From: Escherichia phage vB_EcoM-UFV11
Reading direction: 5' to 3' (one strand)
Sequence record: OP555982.1
Length of the DNA stretch: 64,000 nucleotides
Below the pieces are notes generated by a model, which saw only the letters and a list, made by a program, of their open reading frames with translations, did not search any database and was not told the DNA's origin. Shown here piece after piece: positions 273-37,178 of the stretch (positions within the stretch are counted from its first letter, which is position 1; each line of letters opens with the position of its first letter). The position numbers and the translations under genes were made by a program.

Positions 273-1953
273 TCTTAGCTAAACTAAATCTACCAACTTT
301 TTCCATCTGAATATGCTGACCATATTCTTGTGGGTCATGGTCTTTATGTGAAATTATGAAGAAGTTGGTATCCTTCAAACCATCTAAAATTTTAGCTACA
401 TTTTTAATACCTTCAGCATCAAATGCACCGTCATACACTTCATCAAGAAATAAACAACTTATTTTAACACCTGAAACTTTTTCAGCAATATCACGCCAAG
501 TAAATAAAAGAGCAATATCAATTCGCGCTTTTTCACCTTGACTGAATGAAGCATAACTAAAATCTTCACGACCACGGGATTTAATTGTCTCATTAAATTC
601 TTCATCTAATGTAAACACATAATCCGCTTCCATTATTTTAAGATAATGGTTAATCTGCTTATTAAATAATGGAATGTACTTTTTAATAATAGCACCTTTA
701 ATACCAGAATCTTTGAGCATATCAGTCAAAATTCCTCGGTGGTATTTTTCCATTACTAAATTAGTTTTTGTCTTAACAATTTTATCAAGTTCTTCTTGAA
801 GCAGTGCTATTTCATCAGCATGGTCAATAAACTCAGAAGATGCTTTTTCTATAGCCGCTTTAACCTTTTTAGCTTTATCTACTGCTGCGATCAGAGATTG
901 CTTTTTATTGCGAATATCATTTGCCAACGACTGCTGGGTTTTAATATTATCTCGGTATTCATCAACAAGAACTTTTAAATTATCACGATGTGTTGAAAGA
1001 TGTTCAAACGAATGCGTGCATTCAGAAACTTTATCTTTAATTTTAGAAACAACTTTATCACCGGAACTTAATTGTGACAAACAGGTTGGACATAATCCAC
1101 CTTCGTGATACATATTAATGACTTTATTATACGAGTCAATTTTTGATTTAATTAAAACTGCTTCTTGACCGATTTTATTAAATGCATCAGTCGGGTCTTC
1201 ATCTAAAACAATATTAACTAATCTTTCATTAGCTTCTTCTATTTCCGATTTTAGCGTTCTAGCTTCTTTTGCCAAATCATCATACATATTTTGAAGACGA
1301 GTAAGGTTGTCACCCGTTAATTTTTTCTGGCGTTCAACGTTATCATTATATATTTTAATTTGTTGGATAATACTATCTTTTTTAACATCAAGCACTTGGT
1401 TTTGTGAATTTAATTCACGTATTAGTGCTTTATTAAGCTTATCCATTTCAGCTAATGTTCCTACCTCGAGCAGGTCTTCCACAAGCTTTCTTCGCGCAGG
1501 GGTCGACAAACCCATGAAAGGGGTATACCCTGCTGTACCAAGGACAACAATCTGCTTGAAACTGGCATATGACATTCCGATAAGCTGTTCAAATTCTGCT
1601 TGGAAATCTTTACTGCTGGCAGATTCATTAAGACGTGTACCGTTAACGGTGATTTCGAAAACGTTTGGTTTTTGTCCTCTTTTGATATAATACTTTTTCT
1701 CATCATATTCCATCCACAGTTCAACTAAAAGTTCTTTCTTATTTGTGCTGTTTATTAATTGACCTTTCTTTACATCACGAAATGGCTTGCCAAAAAGCCC
1801 AAATGTGATGGCTTCTAACATAGTAGACTTACCACCGCCATTTCGTCCAGTAATAAGAGTTTTTTGAACCTTATCTAATTGAATGTCAATAGGATTTCCA
1901 CCTACTGACATTATATTTTGATACCTAACTCGGTTTAGTTTAAAATTCTTCAC
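265..1953 (-). CDS. 46: recombination endonuclease ATPase subunit gp46 (Rad50/SbcC-like)
   Basis: 562-aa ORF; Walker A GRNGGGKST near N-terminus, long central coiled coil, C-terminal LFLDEV region; adjacent to gp47; length as T4 gp46. Confidence 0.9.
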   Translation of the reverse strand: MKNFKLNRVRYQNIMSVGGNPIDIQLDKVQKTLITGRNGGGKSTMLEAITFGLFGKPFRDVKKGQLINSTNKKELLVELWMEYDEKKYYIKRGQKPNVFEITVNGTRLNESASSKDFQAEFEQLIGMSYASFKQIVVLGTAGYTPFMGLSTPARRKLVEDLLEVGTLAEMDKLNKALIRELNSQNQVLDVKKDSIIQQIKIYNDNVERQKKLTGDNLTRLQNMYDDLAKEARTLKSEIEEANERLVNIVLDEDPTDAFNKIGQEAVLIKSKIDSYNKVINMYHEGGLCPTCLSQLSSGDKVVSKIKDKVSECTHSFEHLSTHRDNLKVLVDEYRDNIKTQQSLANDIRNKKQSLIAAVDKAKKVKAAIEKASSEFIDHADEIALLQEELDKIVKTKTNLVMEKYHRGILTDMLKDSGIKGAIIKKYIPLFNKQINHYLKIMEADYVFTLDEEFNETIKSRGREDFSYASFSQGEKARIDIALLFTWRDIAEKVSGVKISCLFLDEVYDGAFDAEGIKNVAKILDGLKDTNFFIISHKDHDPQEYGQHIQMEKVGRFSLAKIS

Positions 1954-34904: not shown

Positions 34905-34932
34905 AAAAAGCCCCAACCTTTTGGTCGGGACT
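34905..34932 (-). terminator. intrinsic terminator (10-bp stem, AAAA loop, U-tract)
   Basis: minus-strand AGUCCCGACC-AAAA-GGUUGGGGCU then UUUUU; 8 nt after stop of the internal-protein-like gene. Confidence 0.7.
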
Positions 34933-34939
34933 AAGAATG

Positions 34940-35413
34940 TTATTTGATTTGTTTAGCAGACCAAATGCGGTCTTTAATAATTTTTTGGATGTCTTCAACA
35001 TACTCAAGAGAATGAGCATGTGGGTTATCTTTAAAGCTATGAGCACGAGCTAGCTTTTGGCCTTCAGTTTTGATTACTAAAAGCTCTTTAAGGATAGCTT
35101 CATATTTGGAGATAATTCCTTTAACGATATTTTTTTCTTGTGCGACTTTAGGATCTGCTTTAGGAGCAGGTTTACCCGAAGCCTTTGCAAAAGCAGCGCC
35201 AGTAGCAACTAAACTTTTCCAGGCCATACTAACTGCATTTCCCGTAAATCCTTCCGCTTTCATGTCGCGTGCGAACTGGAATCGTGATTCATCAGAAGCA
35301 TCTTTGTAAGAATATTTACCCGCTGCAATGGCTGCTTTTGCGACAGCTTGAATTTCGGTGCTAGATGCTTCATTTAACACCGCTTCATTTAAAAATTGAG
35401 TATATGATTTCAT
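34940..35413 (-). CDS. internal-protein-like gene with capsid-targeting leader, in its own late cassette
   Basis: 157 aa; N-terminus MKSYTQFLNEA (L-x-E cleavage context); Ala/Lys-rich; late promoter upstream and terminators on both sides. Confidence 0.6.
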   Translation of the reverse strand: MKSYTQFLNEAVLNEASSTEIQAVAKAAIAAGKYSYKDASDESRFQFARDMKAEGFTGNAVSMAWKSLVATGAAFAKASGKPAPKADPKVAQEKNIVKGIISKYEAILKELLVIKTEGQKLARAHSFKDNPHAHSLEYVEDIQKIIKDRIWSAKQIK

Positions 35414-35449
35414 CTTATTTCCTGTTTTAATTCGTGGATTTAATATACT

Positions 35450-35457
35450 TATTTATA
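35450..35457 (-). promoter_or_regulatory. T4 late promoter TATAAATA
   Basis: exact TATAAATA on minus strand about 36 nt upstream of the ATG at 35413. Confidence 0.6.
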
Positions 35458-35459
35458 CT

Positions 35460-35487
35460 AAAAAGCCCCAACCTTTTGGTCGGGGCT
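35460..35487 (-). terminator. intrinsic terminator, near-identical copy of 34905-34932
   Basis: AGCCCCGACC-AAAA-GGUUGGGGCU + U-tract on the minus strand; immediately followed by the late promoter. Confidence 0.7.
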
Positions 35488-35489
35488 AA

Positions 35490-35795
35490 GCCTTGCGGCA
35501 ACCTTGTCGGGGTTCCACCTGCTAAGGCAAGTGTTTGTACGAAACGCCGGGATTCGAACCCGGTTATTAAGCAGTTGACGCTACTCAATATTTTTAAAAG
35601 GCCATATCTCGACCATATCCGAACGTTCCGTCAAAAACGCTACTCGGCTTACGGCAAAGATATTTCCTCGAATCGATAATTCGGTGCGCCGTTTCTGCTG
35701 TGATAGTAAAGAGCCAGAACACAGTAAAACTGTGGGAGGAAACTATACTCCAGGGAACATCAGTCCGACGACTTACCGGTAGCGACCCGGTTTCT
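35490..35795 (-). ncRNA. structured non-coding region, candidate stable small RNA(s) (T4 species 1/2-like position)
   Basis: no ORF; GC-rich paired segments; contains tRNA-like T-arm CCGGG-UUCGAAU-CCCGG (35546-35562) without a full cloverleaf. Confidence 0.35.
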
Positions 35796-36145
35796 TAGTA
35801 TTCTTTTAAAGCATCAATTTGTTCACGGCGTTTACGCCATAAATCAATTGCTTCATAAGCAGATTCAGCATTTCGAATTAGCCGACATTTATATAAAGAC
35901 TTGTGATTTTGGTATTGCGTAGATAATGGAATTTTATCTAAAAGGTCTTTGCGTTCAAAGTATTCGTAACCATCTAAACCAAATGAACGATTTTTGAGAA
36001 ATTGCCAATGACCATATTCGTTTTCGACATAAACATAATCTGCATGCTGATAAAGCAAATTAATTACACGTTCAGAAATAACAGTATCATTATGATTAAA
36101 ATAGAATGTTAAATCATGAACTACTAAATAAACATTACCTTTCAT
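35795..36145 (-). CDS. hypothetical protein adjacent to tRNA cluster
   Basis: 116-aa ORF. Confidence 0.5.
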   Translation of the reverse strand: MKGNVYLVVHDLTFYFNHNDTVISERVINLLYQHADYVYVENEYGHWQFLKNRSFGLDGYEYFERKDLLDKIPLSTQYQNHKSLYKCRLIRNAESAYEAIDLWRKRREQIDALKEY

Positions 36146-36163
36146 ATTTTCCTCACTTATAAT

Positions 36164-36239
36164 TGGTCGAGGCAGTAGGGATCGAACCTACGACCCAGGA
36201 CTTAGAAGGTCCTTGCTCTTCCTTCTGAGCTATGCCCCG
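36164..36239 (-). tRNA. tRNA-Arg (anticodon UCU)
   Basis: manual cloverleaf: acceptor CGGGGCA/TGCCTCG, T-loop GGTTCGATCC, anticodon loop CUUCUAA, encoded CCA. Confidence 0.8.
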
Positions 36240-36243
36240 TAAT

Positions 36244-36319
36244 TGGGGTGACCGATGGGAGTCGAACCCATGACTACGAGAATCACAATCTCGAGTTCTA
36301 CCAACTGAACTACGGCCAC
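36244..36319 (-). tRNA. tRNA-His (anticodon GUG)
   Basis: acceptor GTGGCCG/CGGTCAC, T-loop GGTTCGACTCC, anticodon loop ATTGTGA, encoded CCA. Confidence 0.7.
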
Positions 36320-36433
36320 ATTAATACCTACTCCAACAATCATGATGTCTTCACACGAAATTAAGAGAAGAGTGATCAGTTCAACCCCTATAATCGCGTC
36401 AAGTAGATATTAATGTGACAGTTGTCACAAATT

Positions 36434-36508
36434 TGGCGGACGTGATAGGATTCGAACCTATAACCAATCGCTTAACAGGCGATCGCTCTGCCATTGAGCT
36501 ACACATCC
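36434..36508 (-). tRNA. tRNA-Asn (anticodon GUU)
   Basis: acceptor GGATGTG/CACGTCC, T-loop GGTTCGAATCC, anticodon loop CTGTTAA, encoded CCA. Confidence 0.75.
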
Positions 36509-36512
36509 AAAT

Positions 36513-36599
36513 TGGTGGGGAGTGATGGAGTCGAACCACCCGAGTCGCAATGACAATGAATTTACAGTCCACACCGCTACCTCTACGGGATAACTCCCC
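36513..36599 (-). tRNA. tRNA-Tyr (anticodon GUA), class II with long variable arm
   Basis: 87 nt; acceptor GGGGAGT/ACTCCCC, anticodon loop CTGTAAA, T-loop GGTTCGACTCC, encoded CCA; anticodon stem has G-U pairs. Confidence 0.6.
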
Positions 36600-36605
36600 T
36601 TAATT

Positions 36606-36680
36606 TGGTGGCCCTGGGTGGAATTGAACCACCATCTGGCGATTATGAGTCGCTTGCTTGAACCTTCCAGCTACAGGGCC
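36606..36680 (-). tRNA. tRNA with CAU anticodon (Met, or Ile if position 34 is modified)
   Basis: acceptor GGCCCTG/CAGGGCC, anticodon loop CTCATAA, T-loop GGTTCAATTCC, encoded CCA. Confidence 0.7.
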
Positions 36681-36681
36681 T

Positions 36682-36757
36682 TGGTGCTGATTGACGGAAT
36701 CGAACCGCCGACATCCTCATTACAAGTGAGGTGCTCTACCTACTGAGCTAAATCAGC
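36682..36757 (-). tRNA. tRNA-Thr (anticodon UGU)
   Basis: acceptor GCTGATT/AATCAGC, anticodon loop CTTGTAA, T-loop GGTTCGATTCC, encoded CCA. Confidence 0.8.
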
Positions 36758-36762
36758 AAAGC

Positions 36763-36852
36763 TGGCGGAGGCGATAGGATTTGAACCTATGAATCGCCGG
36801 AGCGACTGCCGGTTTTCAAGACCGGTGCATTAAACCACTCTGCCACGCCTCC
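36763..36852 (-). tRNA. tRNA-Ser (anticodon UGA), class II
   Basis: 90 nt; acceptor GGAGGCG/CGCCTCC, anticodon loop CTTGAAA, long variable arm, T-loop GGTTCAAATCC. Confidence 0.8.
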
Positions 36853-36854
36853 AG

Positions 36855-36928
36855 TCTCCATACAAGGATTTGAACCTTGGACCTCCTGATCCCAAATCAG
36901 GCGCTCTACCAAACTGAGCTACACGGAG
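36855..36928 (-). tRNA. tRNA-Pro (anticodon UGG)
   Basis: anticodon loop TTTGGGA, T-loop GGTTCAAATCC; CCA not encoded. Confidence 0.75.
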
Positions 36929-36938
36929 TAAATTAAAT

Positions 36939-37012
<74 letters not shown>

Positions 37013-37017
37013 AAATT

Positions 37018-37104
37018 TGGTGCGAGAAGTGGGACTCGAACCCACAAGGAAATCATTCCGCAGCATTTTAAGTGCTGTGCCTTTACCAATTTGACCATTC
37101 TCGC
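37018..37104 (-). tRNA. tRNA-Leu (anticodon UAA), class II
   Basis: 87 nt; acceptor GCGAGAA/TTCTCGC, anticodon loop CTTAAAA, long variable arm, T-loop GGTTCGAGTCC. Confidence 0.8.
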
Positions 37105-37105
37105 G

Positions 37106-37178
37106 CTGGGAATAAAGGATTCGAACCTTTGCATCTAGCAGTCAAAGTGCTATGCCTTACCAACTTGGCTAATTCCCA
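37106..37178 (-). tRNA. tRNA-Gln (anticodon UUG)
   Basis: acceptor TGGGAAT/ATTCCCA, anticodon loop CTTTGAC, T-loop GGTTCGAATCC. Confidence 0.75.

What the first reader, a model, noticed from the sequence alone, without database searches (positions are those of the whole stretch)
35490..35795. About 300-nt ORF-free structured region with an isolated tRNA-like T-arm
Seen: no coding potential; relatively GC-rich; minus-strand sequence contains CCGGG-UUCGAAU-CCCGG (a canonical T-stem-loop) without matching acceptor or anticodon stems, plus other paired segments. Established knowledge: T4 encodes two small stable RNAs (species 1 and 2) next to its tRNAs. Inference: these may be the counterparts, or a tRNA-like regulatory or processing element.
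Basis: partly seen in the sequence, partly recalled or inferred. Interest (0 to 1): 0.4.

Follow-up and report, generated by a model that had tools for sequence, protein, structure and literature searches.

The report
T4 rnaC/rnaD stable RNA orthologues
This stretch holds this T4-like phage's copies of two long-known small stable RNAs of phage T4 (species 1/rnaC and species 2/rnaD), so it is not new, although comparison shows that rnaC is a tRNA look-alike locked by a loop-loop contact, which makes its unknown function easier to test.

Summary
Window 35455-35798 (minus strand) is the orthologue of the T4 rnaD (species 2) - rnaC (species 1) - terminator block, just downstream of the 11-gene tRNA cluster. 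rnaC (35539-35675) differs from T4 at 2 of 137 positions. rnaD (about 35683-35798) keeps the T4 ends but has a different central hairpin. The T arm is real (35547-35563; 0.03 expected by chance).

Thirty-two distinct homologues from at least nine T4-like lineages support a cloverleaf-like four-way junction (94.6% of cells paired, 27 pairs with changes on both sides). They also support a 6-bp kissing contact between the two non-tRNA arms (UUGACG/CGUCAA), with two independent compensatory variants.

No Rfam family, tRNA or tmRNA caller recognises it. No relative was found in bacterial genomes.

The function is still unknown in the literature I could search. My best reading is a non-decoding tRNA mimic matured by the tRNA-processing machinery. 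Already known; modest interest.

The parts
35683..35798 (-). rnaD (T4 species 2 RNA) orthologue, about 116 nt. The 5' end is approximate, because here an ORF precedes it instead of tRNA-Arg.
   Evidence: Aligned to T4 rnaD as annotated in MT984581 and X03016. The 5' ~47 nt and 3' ~22 nt are identical to T4 and the centre differs.
35775..35791 (-). rnaD hairpin P1: 5 bp with the 7-nt loop GUCGCUA
   Evidence: RNAalifold on 12 variants. The closing pair is A-U, G-C or G.U.
35766..35772 (-). rnaD long-range helix P2, 5' strand GUCGUCG, predicted to pair with 35684-35691
   Evidence: Predicted in all variants. The sequence never varies, so covariation gives no test.
35684..35691 (-). rnaD helix P2, 3' strand CGGCGCAC, followed by the 3' tail C (CA in T4)
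   Evidence: X03016 ends species 2 RNA at ...GCGCACCA.
35705..35751 (-). rnaD hypervariable central hairpin
   Evidence: At least 5 sequence classes among otherwise near-identical Tequatrovirus loci. All fold as a hairpin, and several pairs show compensatory changes.
35676..35682 (-). Spacer GAAUUAU between rnaD and rnaC, removed in T4
   Evidence: Gap between the annotated RNAs. A similar AAUUAU / AAUAAU spacer separates tRNA-Trp or tRNA-Met from rnaC in other genera.
35539..35675 (-). rnaC (T4 species 1 RNA) orthologue, 137 nt, a tRNA-like four-way junction
   Evidence: My covariance model R1 scores it 156 bits, E about 1e-39, the only significant hit in the window. It is 135/137 identical to T4. 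The limits equal the X03016 annotation.
35669..35675 (-). rnaC acceptor stem, 5' strand CGAUUCG
   Evidence: Pairs with 35540-35546. Pair 3 is G-C in 19 sequences and A-U in 12. The two U.U positions are standard pairs in 3 of 32 sequences.
35599..35668 (-). rnaC arm H1, a long irregular hairpin in the D-arm position. It starts with a 3-bp stem AGG/CCU and carries an invariant GG at 35602-35603.
   Evidence: Helices 2-6 are 95-100% paired, and 12 of their 16 pairs show changes on both sides. The GG is invariant except in one lineage.
35629..35634 (-). H1 apical loop UUGACG, one side of the kissing contact
   Evidence: Pairs with 35575-35580. Paired in 99.5% of cells. Variants UUGAUG/CAUCAA and UUGGCG/CGCCAA are compensatory.
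35591..35598 (-). A/U-rich single-stranded linker UUUAAAAA between H1 and H2
   Evidence: Unpaired in the consensus structure. Several of the A positions are invariant.
35565..35590 (-). rnaC arm H2, a 10-bp hairpin in the anticodon-arm position, with the 6-nt loop CGUCAA at 35575-35580
   Evidence: 8 of 9 counted pairs show changes on both sides. The loop forms the other side of the kissing contact. X03016 already marked it as a 'pot. stem-loop structure'.
35547..35563 (-). rnaC T arm, CCGGG-UUCGAAU-CCCGG, directly abutting the acceptor 3' strand
   Evidence: It is 100% paired, and 2 pairs show compensatory changes.
35539..35546 (-). rnaC acceptor 3' strand CGUUUCG (35540-35546) plus an unpaired U at 35539 in the discriminator position. 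No CCA is encoded here; ACA follows.
   Evidence: The following triplet is CCA in Marfavirus and PM2, UCA in Tegunavirus and ACA elsewhere.
35488..35538 (-). Conserved 3' trailer with three small predicted hairpins (35516-35533, 35500-35514, 35490-35499)
   Evidence: Differs from T4 at one position over this stretch. Also kept in JS98, where it directly follows rnaD. Hairpins are from the fold.
35459..35487 (-). Intrinsic terminator: a 10-bp stem (35464-35487) followed by a U tract
   Evidence: Terminator scan. X03016 marks the same hairpin as 'pot. terminator'.

Best explanation
Identity (shown). The region encodes the orthologues of T4 rnaD (species 2 RNA) and rnaC (species 1 RNA), transcribed on the minus strand as the tail of the tRNA operon and ended by an intrinsic terminator.

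Structure (shown by covariation). rnaC is a tRNA-shaped RNA. It has a 7-bp acceptor stem, a canonical T arm abutting that stem, and one unpaired U in the discriminator position. The D arm is replaced by a long hairpin, H1. The anticodon arm is replaced by a 10-bp hairpin, H2. The 6-nt loop of H2 pairs completely with the apical loop of H1, so no anticodon is exposed.

Biogenesis (inferred from the anatomy, from the tRNA neighbours and from classical T4 work that I could not re-read). The acceptor/T minihelix makes rnaC a substrate for RNase P at its 5' end and for tRNA-type 3' trimming. This releases it from the precursor and makes it stable.

Function (inferred, about 0.35). rnaC does not decode. 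It most likely acts as a rigid tRNA mimic that occupies or recruits a protein recognising the acceptor/T-elbow face of tRNA, whether a host processing, repair or tRNA-directed defence factor or a phage factor.

rnaD is an independent module. It is a small RNA with conserved ends and a fast-evolving central hairpin. Its role is unknown.
For: Identity: (annotated rnaC | rnaD, species 1 and 2 RNA; 98-100% identity for rnaC in more than 680 phage records).

Structure. Of 32 distinct sequences, 94.6% of cells are paired against 83% in shuffles and 35-55% when the partners are slid. 27 pairs show changes on both sides, and 0 of 500 shuffles reach the observed values.

Kissing contact. Two compensatory variants occur in two separate lineages. 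One of them was found by a scan that did not constrain the loops.

tRNA context: rnaC sits between tRNA-Trp and tRNA-Gly, or directly after tRNA-Met, in other genera, separated by 5-10 nt spacers.

tRNA ancestry: U-CCA is encoded after the acceptor stem in Marfavirus and PM2.

Possible tRNA-like elbow: the invariant GG becomes CG only in the lineage whose T loop changes from UUCGAAU to UGCAUGC.

Transcript: RNAC was detected by Northern blot in T4 infection and classed as late (PMC9697503).

Independence of the two RNAs: JS98 keeps rnaD and the trailer but has no rnaC, and many genera have rnaC without rnaD.

Phage-specific: no relative in 185,579 bacterial and archaeal species genomes by pattern scan, and none in 5,426 complete E. 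coli genomes.
Against: No experiment or paper in reach assigns a function: 'biological roles are unknown' (PMC3014915; PMC9697503; PMC12685909).

The binding partner is pure inference.

The elbow contact rests on a single evolutionary event.

The T loop is not canonical in the Q7622 lineage, so T-loop recognition is not universally kept.

RNase P processing and the mature ends come from my memory of 1970s-80s T4 work and from database annotation, not from data seen here. The two T4 records disagree by 1-2 nt at each end.

rnaD alone folds no better than shuffled sequence in this window (z = -0.28).
Confidence: 0.85

Rival explanations
1. Cis-acting processing or stabilising element. The tRNA-like fold serves only as 'punctuation' that lets RNase P cut the polycistronic tRNA/ORF transcript, or protects its 3' end. 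The released RNA has no function in trans.
For: rnaC always lies in or at the end of a tRNA cluster. In this window rnaD directly follows an ORF whose stop codon overlaps it, and a terminator follows rnaC.
Against: Punctuation needs only an acceptor/T minihelix. Yet H1, H2, the kissing loops, the linker As and the overall length (136-140 nt) are conserved with compensatory changes across at least nine lineages and several different flanking contexts.
Confidence: 0.15
2. Trans-acting base-pairing small RNAs that regulate phage or host mRNAs.
For: The literature loosely calls them 'small regulatory RNAs'. The rnaD central hairpin varies like a specificity determinant. A convergent SNP in rnaD arose during adaptation of a T4-like phage to E. 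coli ECOR34 (PMC12685909).
Against: In rnaC nearly every conserved nucleotide is paired internally, and the only long single strand is an A/U-rich 8-mer. No target was sought or found here. No trans-acting regulatory RNA had been functionally characterised from T4 as of that 2010 review.
Confidence: 0.1
3. Aminoacylated tRNA-like RNA with a non-decoding role, tmRNA-like or an amino-acid donor.
For: Acceptor stem, T arm and discriminator are present, and CCA is encoded in two lineages. The host CCA-adding enzyme could supply CCA elsewhere.
Against: No tmRNA call by ARAGORN and no Rfam tmRNA match. There is no G3.U70 pair and no anticodon. The stem pairs C1-G72, G2-C71 and R3-Y70 with U73 fit no E. 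coli identity set that I know. Both T4 records end the mature RNA without CCA.
Confidence: 0.05
4. Decaying tRNA pseudogenes that happen to be stable, with no selected function.
For: tRNA ancestry is likely (T arm, acceptor stem, CCA remnants). rnaC was cleanly lost in JS98. From my memory, the T4 tRNA region is dispensable in laboratory strains.
Against: Covariation in every helix, including the parts that are not tRNA-like, shows purifying selection on the fold. So does the near-invariance of rnaC (at least 95% identity in 683 of the 750 matching records).
Confidence: 0.04
5. Small protein-coding genes, as many GenBank records annotate here ('hypothetical protein').
For: Mechanical ORFs of 24-81 aa overlap the region. 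CDS calls appear in many records.
Against: The ORFs do not survive in genera where rnaC is flanked by tRNAs a few nucleotides away. Substitutions follow base-pairing, not codons. The RNAs were sequenced and blotted as RNAs.
Confidence: 0.01

Closest known systems
Phage T4 rnaC (species 1 RNA) and rnaD (species 2 RNA)
   Same: Same locus, order and strand relative to the tRNA cluster. rnaC is 135/137 identical. The rnaD ends, the spacer, the trailer and the terminator are conserved.
   Different: The central hairpin of rnaD is a different sequence class. Here a 116-aa ORF (phrog_3355) separates tRNA-Arg from rnaD, whereas in T4 tRNA-Arg abuts rnaD.
Canonical tRNA (Rfam RF00005)
   Same: 7-bp acceptor stem, a 5-bp T stem with loop UUCGAAU directly abutting it, a discriminator nucleotide, CCA in some lineages, location inside tRNA operons, and probably RNase P processing.
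   Different: About 137 nt. No D arm or anticodon loop: a long hairpin and a 10-bp hairpin kiss each other instead. There is a tandem U.U in the acceptor stem. It is below every tRNA threshold.
tRNA-like domain of tmRNA
   Same: An acceptor/T minihelix joined to a large non-tRNA body that includes pseudoknot-type tertiary pairing. It does not decode through an anticodon.
   Different: No tag reading frame, no G3.U70, a different architecture, and not detected by ARAGORN or Rfam.
Bacterial Y RNA-like YrlA and other RNase P-processed tRNA mimics (mascRNA, plant-virus tRNA-like structures)
   Same: A non-coding RNA that copies the tRNA acceptor/T/elbow shape and borrows tRNA-processing enzymes.
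   Different: No Ro-binding stem. The only Rfam YrlA and mascRNA matches in this stretch lie on true tRNAs, not on rnaC. There is no sequence relationship.

Membership tests
T4 rnaC (species 1 RNA) | Sequence homology to the T4 RNA over its whole length | tested here: met
   135/137 identical. blastn gives 98.1% to X03016 over a 156-nt query that includes short flanks, with 'species 1 RNA' annotated under the match.
T4 rnaC (species 1 RNA) | Position at the 3' end of the tRNA operon, followed by the conserved trailer and terminator | tested here: met
T4 rnaC (species 1 RNA) | Accumulates as a stable, processed ~140-nt RNA | not testable with these tools
   Shown for T4 itself by Northern blot (PMC9697503). 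Not measured for this phage.
T4 rnaD (species 2 RNA) | Sequence homology to the T4 RNA | tested here: met
   The 5' ~47 nt and 3' ~22 nt are identical. The central ~47 nt belong to a different class that is also found in other Tequatrovirus loci.
tRNA (RF00005) | Scores above the Rfam gathering threshold or is called by ARAGORN | tested here: not met
   No tRNA hit over 35539-35675. The best match is tRNA-Sec at 16.6 bits against a threshold of 47. ARAGORN calls on homologues give inconsistent 95-96-nt 'tRNA-Met' or 'tRNA-Phe'.
tRNA (RF00005) | Acceptor stem and T arm with the canonical geometry | tested here: met
tRNA (RF00005) | Anticodon stem of 5 bp with a free 7-nt loop, and a D arm | tested here: not met
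   The stem has 10 bp. The loop has 6 nt and is fully engaged in the kissing helix. The D arm is replaced by a 70-nt hairpin.
tmRNA | Detected by ARAGORN or Rfam; has a tag reading frame; has G3.U70 | tested here: not met
   Pair 3-70 is A-U or G-C, with one G.U among 32 sequences.
YrlA / Y RNA-like | Rfam RF02553 match with a Ro-binding stem | tested here: not met
   The only weak YrlA match (17.7 bits against a threshold of 69) lies on tRNA-Arg/His, not on rnaC.

The most novel reading that the evidence does not exclude
rnaC is a dedicated tRNA decoy or adaptor. It is a tRNA-derived RNA whose anticodon and D regions were rebuilt into a kissing-loop-locked body, conserved in at least nine Tevenvirinae lineages. 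It would bind and neutralise, or redirect, a host tRNA-directed enzyme such as a defence nuclease or a processing or repair factor. The hypervariable hairpin of rnaD would be under host-driven diversifying selection.
Probability: 0.2. Interest if true: 0.7.

Novelty: already known. Interest (0 to 1): 0.3.

Why it matters
The element itself is textbook T4 biology, so finding it in a T4-like genome is expected.

What matters is practical. rnaC and rnaD are left unannotated or mis-annotated in most phage records: 'hypothetical protein' CDS, 'tRNA-OTHER', or a 95-nt 'tRNA-Met'. Rfam has no family for them.

Their function has been open for about 50 years. The covariation-backed model built here gives concrete mutants and assays for that question. 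The model comprises an acceptor/T minihelix, a possible tRNA-like elbow, and a 6-bp kissing contact between the two rebuilt arms.

Tried and rejected
Rfam gave nothing for rnaC or rnaD, either at gathering thresholds on the whole window or at E up to 10 on 35300-36450.

ARAGORN found no tRNA or tmRNA here.

Pattern scans of GTDB species genomes and JGI metagenomes returned T4-like phage contigs plus chance hits in G+C-rich coding DNA. There was no bacterial homologue and no deeper lineage. A looser pattern on IMG/VR added only PM2 itself and two chance hits.

blastn against 5,426 complete E. coli genomes found no match.

Literature: three full-text searches found no functional study and no published kissing-loop model. 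One search was largely wasted on the ambiguous phrase 'species 1 and 2'. The Miller 2003 T4 genome review is not held. The large virus structured-RNA survey does not mention this RNA in its main text.

I considered and dropped a tRNA-like reading of rnaD. Its 3' end is ...GCGCACCA only in T4; other phages have ACCG, ACAG or ACCU. No 5' strand matches an acceptor stem.

I considered and dropped a 40-codon ORF that runs from rnaD into rnaC. It cannot exist where tRNAs flank rnaC.

I considered pairing GAAACG (the 3' part of rnaD) with CGUUUC, as in the minimum-free-energy fold. I rejected it in favour of the rnaC acceptor stem, which covaries and exists in phages that lack rnaD.

Full report
**What is there**

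The window is a T4-like (Tequatrovirus) genome segment. ARAGORN and Rfam find 11 and 10 tRNA genes respectively on the minus strand at 36164-37178. The finding lies just downstream on the same strand.

On the minus strand, CCGGG-UUCGAAU-CCCGG sits at 35547-35563. It is unique in the window, with 0.03 matches expected by chance. The region has 46% G+C against 32-41% in the neighbouring ORFs. It folds far better than shuffled sequence: z = -6.0 for 35455-35800 and z = -4.4 for rnaC alone. Only short mechanical ORFs overlap it.

**Identity**

blastn against 50,697 phage records finds the region in 813 of them. In T4 (MT984581) the match lies on the features rnaC | rnaD. The original T4 tRNA-region record X03016 annotates 'species 2 RNA', 'species 1 RNA', a 'pot. 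stem-loop structure' and a 'pot. terminator' at the aligned positions.

Pairwise alignment and my covariance model place the parts as follows:
- rnaD at about 35683-35798
- a 7-nt spacer at 35676-35682
- rnaC at 35539-35675 (156 bits, the only significant hit in the window)
- a conserved trailer at 35488-35538
- an intrinsic terminator at 35464-35487

rnaC differs from T4 at two positions, both inside helices (C-G against U.G, and U.G against U-A). rnaD keeps the T4 5' ~47 nt and 3' ~22 nt, but its central ~47 nt are unrelated in sequence.

**rnaC structure**

The 7 nt directly after the T stem (CGUUUCG) pair with the 5' end (CGAUUCG), leaving two U.U mismatches.

I collected homologues from three sources:
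- the phage collection
- IMG/VR
- metagenomes

This gave 32 distinct sequences from Tequatrovirus, Kanagawavirus, Karamvirus, Tegunavirus, Gelderlandvirus, the Klebsiella phage Marfa group, Moonvirus, Mosugukvirus and unclassified relatives.

RNAalifold predicts a cloverleaf-like four-way junction. It has four arms:
- an acceptor stem
- a long irregular hairpin, H1, in the D-arm position
- a 10-bp hairpin, H2, in the anticodon-arm position
- a T arm

Counting pairs on the model-based alignment gives these numbers:
- 94.6% of cells are paired, against 82.7% in column shuffles and 35-55% when the partners are slid
- 27 of 43 pairs show changes on both sides
- 0 of 500 shuffles reach the observed values

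In the acceptor stem, pair 3 alternates between G-C and A-U. The U.U positions become U-A/C-G in Tegunavirus and U-A/U-A in PM2. PM2 also changes pair 1 from C-G to A-U.

**Kissing contact**

The H1 apical loop (UUGACG, 35629-35634) is complementary to the entire H2 loop (CGUCAA, 35575-35580). All six pairs are kept in 31 of 32 sequences.

Two lineages carry compensatory double changes: UUGAUG/CAUCAA in Tegunavirus and UUGGCG/CGCCAA in the Marfa group. The Marfa-group sequences came from a scan that put no constraint on the loops. PM2 keeps four of the six pairs. Both hairpin stems covary on their own, so this is a loop-loop (pseudoknot-type) contact and not an alternative helix.

I found no description of this contact in the searchable literature. 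I could not read the 1970s-80s papers, so I do not claim priority.

**Hints of tRNA ancestry and shape**

After the unpaired U that follows the acceptor stem, the DNA reads CCA in the Marfa group and PM2, UCA in Tegunavirus and ACA elsewhere. This looks like a decayed encoded CCA.

An invariant GG lies just 5' of the 3' strand of the 3-bp stem that opens H1, where G18-G19 would sit in a tRNA. It becomes CG only in the Q7622 lineage. That is the one lineage whose T loop changes from UUCGAAU to UGCAUGC, which would turn G18.U55 into C18-G55 and keep G19-C56. This is one evolutionary event and is only suggestive.

**Genomic context**

In Karamvirus, Gelderlandvirus and several others, rnaC sits between tRNA-Trp and tRNA-Gly. 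In Tegunavirus, PM2 and locus L012, tRNA-Trp follows it. In Kanagawavirus Q7622 it directly follows tRNA-Met. Spacers are 5-10 nt, and the upstream spacer (AAUUAU-like) resembles the one after rnaD in T4.

JS98 (Dhakavirus) has tRNA-Arg, rnaD and the trailer but no rnaC. rnaD is joined directly to the trailer. rnaC and rnaD are therefore independent modules. rnaC behaves like one more 'gene' of the tRNA cluster.

No relative exists in the GTDB species genomes, where the pattern scan returned chance hits only. None exists in 5,426 complete E. coli genomes.

**rnaD**

Twelve variants share three features:
- a 5' hairpin of 5 bp with the loop GUCGCUA, whose closing pair is A-U, G-C or G.U
- an invariant long-range helix (GU-CGUCG with CGGCG-C-AC) that leaves a 1-2 nt 3' tail
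- a central hairpin that occurs in at least five sequence classes among otherwise near-identical phages

In this window rnaD alone is no more stable than shuffled sequence (z = -0.28). The ACCA end seen in T4 is not conserved (ACCG here), so I do not read rnaD as tRNA-like. A published evolution experiment found one convergent SNP in rnaD when a T4-like phage adapted to E. coli ECOR34 (PMC12685909). That hints at a host-dependent role.

**How it most likely works**

Shown: identity, fold, kissing contact, tRNA-cluster context, and the fact that the family is phage-specific.

Taken from annotation and my own knowledge of classical T4 work, not re-read here: both are stable processed RNAs cut from a dimeric precursor, with RNase P making the 5' end of species 1.

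Inferred: the acceptor/T minihelix is the handle for RNase P and 3' trimming and gives tRNA-like stability. With no free anticodon and no recognisable aminoacylation identity set, rnaC does not decode. The conserved, rigid, kissing-locked body argues for recognition by a protein.

I therefore favour a tRNA mimic that occupies or recruits a tRNA-binding factor (about 0.35). The rivals rank as follows:
- a pure processing or stability element (0.15)
- a base-pairing sRNA (0.1)
- an aminoacylated tmRNA-like RNA (0.05)
- a functionless pseudogene (0.04)
- coding ORFs (0.01)

Reviews and recent omics papers state that the roles are unknown.

**Verdict**

It is already known as a gene pair. The added value is a covariation-supported structural model and a distribution map. 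Interest is modest (0.3).

Noticed in passing
window 36320-36433 (-): The 114-nt spacer between tRNA-Asn and tRNA-His is structured (z = -3.7) and has no Rfam match. It is conserved upstream of tRNA-His in 376 phage records, including Klebsiella and Enterobacter T4-likes. Six lineages share a 14-bp closing helix, and 8 pairs across the predicted structure show compensatory changes. It may be another unannotated stable RNA or processing element.
   Followed up: partly
window 35795-36145 (-): A 116-aa ORF (phrog_3355, unknown function) is inserted exactly between tRNA-Arg and rnaD. Its stop codon overlaps the first conserved rnaD nucleotides (UAAGAAACC). In T4 and several other loci tRNA-Arg abuts rnaD with a 1-nt gap. 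So the rnaD 5' end must be made differently here, or rnaD acts as the 3' UTR of this ORF.
   Followed up: partly
window 34909-34932 and 35464-35487 (-): The rnaC terminator hairpin is duplicated, differing at one position. The two copies flank a 157-aa ORF (34940-35413, phrog_2280, unknown function) that is not annotated in the T4 stretch fetched for comparison. This looks like a gene cassette inserted together with its own copy of the terminator.
   Followed up: partly
L092 (JS98) 1250-1410 (-): JS98 keeps tRNA-Arg, rnaD and the trailer, but rnaC is cleanly absent. rnaD ...GGCGCACAG is joined to AACACUUGCC of the trailer, and the covariance model finds nothing.
   Followed up: yes
L004 1554-1648; L007 7816-7911; many GenBank records: ARAGORN and the depositors call the 3' two-thirds of rnaC a 95-96-nt 'tRNA-Met' or 'tRNA-Phe', with an inconsistent anticodon between close relatives. 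One record says 'tRNA-OTHER', and many place 'hypothetical protein' CDS over rnaC/rnaD. This is systematic mis-annotation.
   Followed up: partly
L003 1510-1647 (Q7622 lineage; also L008, L022, L024, L060): This is the only lineage with a non-canonical T loop (UGCAUGC). It is also the only one where the invariant GG of H1 is CG. That is consistent with a compensated tRNA-like elbow contact.
   Followed up: partly
L026-L028, about 70 nt upstream of rnaC: In the Klebsiella phage Marfa group, a ~72-nt segment lies between tRNA-Met and rnaC and ends in ...GGCCCACCCCA. This resembles a tRNA 3' end, but ARAGORN does not call it. It may be another degenerate tRNA-like unit.
   Followed up: no
window 35705-35751 (-) and homologous loci: The rnaD central hairpin falls into at least five unrelated or strongly diverged sequence classes among phages whose flanks are almost identical. 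Classes b-d carry a Shine-Dalgarno-like UAAGGA paired with a CCCUUAC-type strand.
   Followed up: partly
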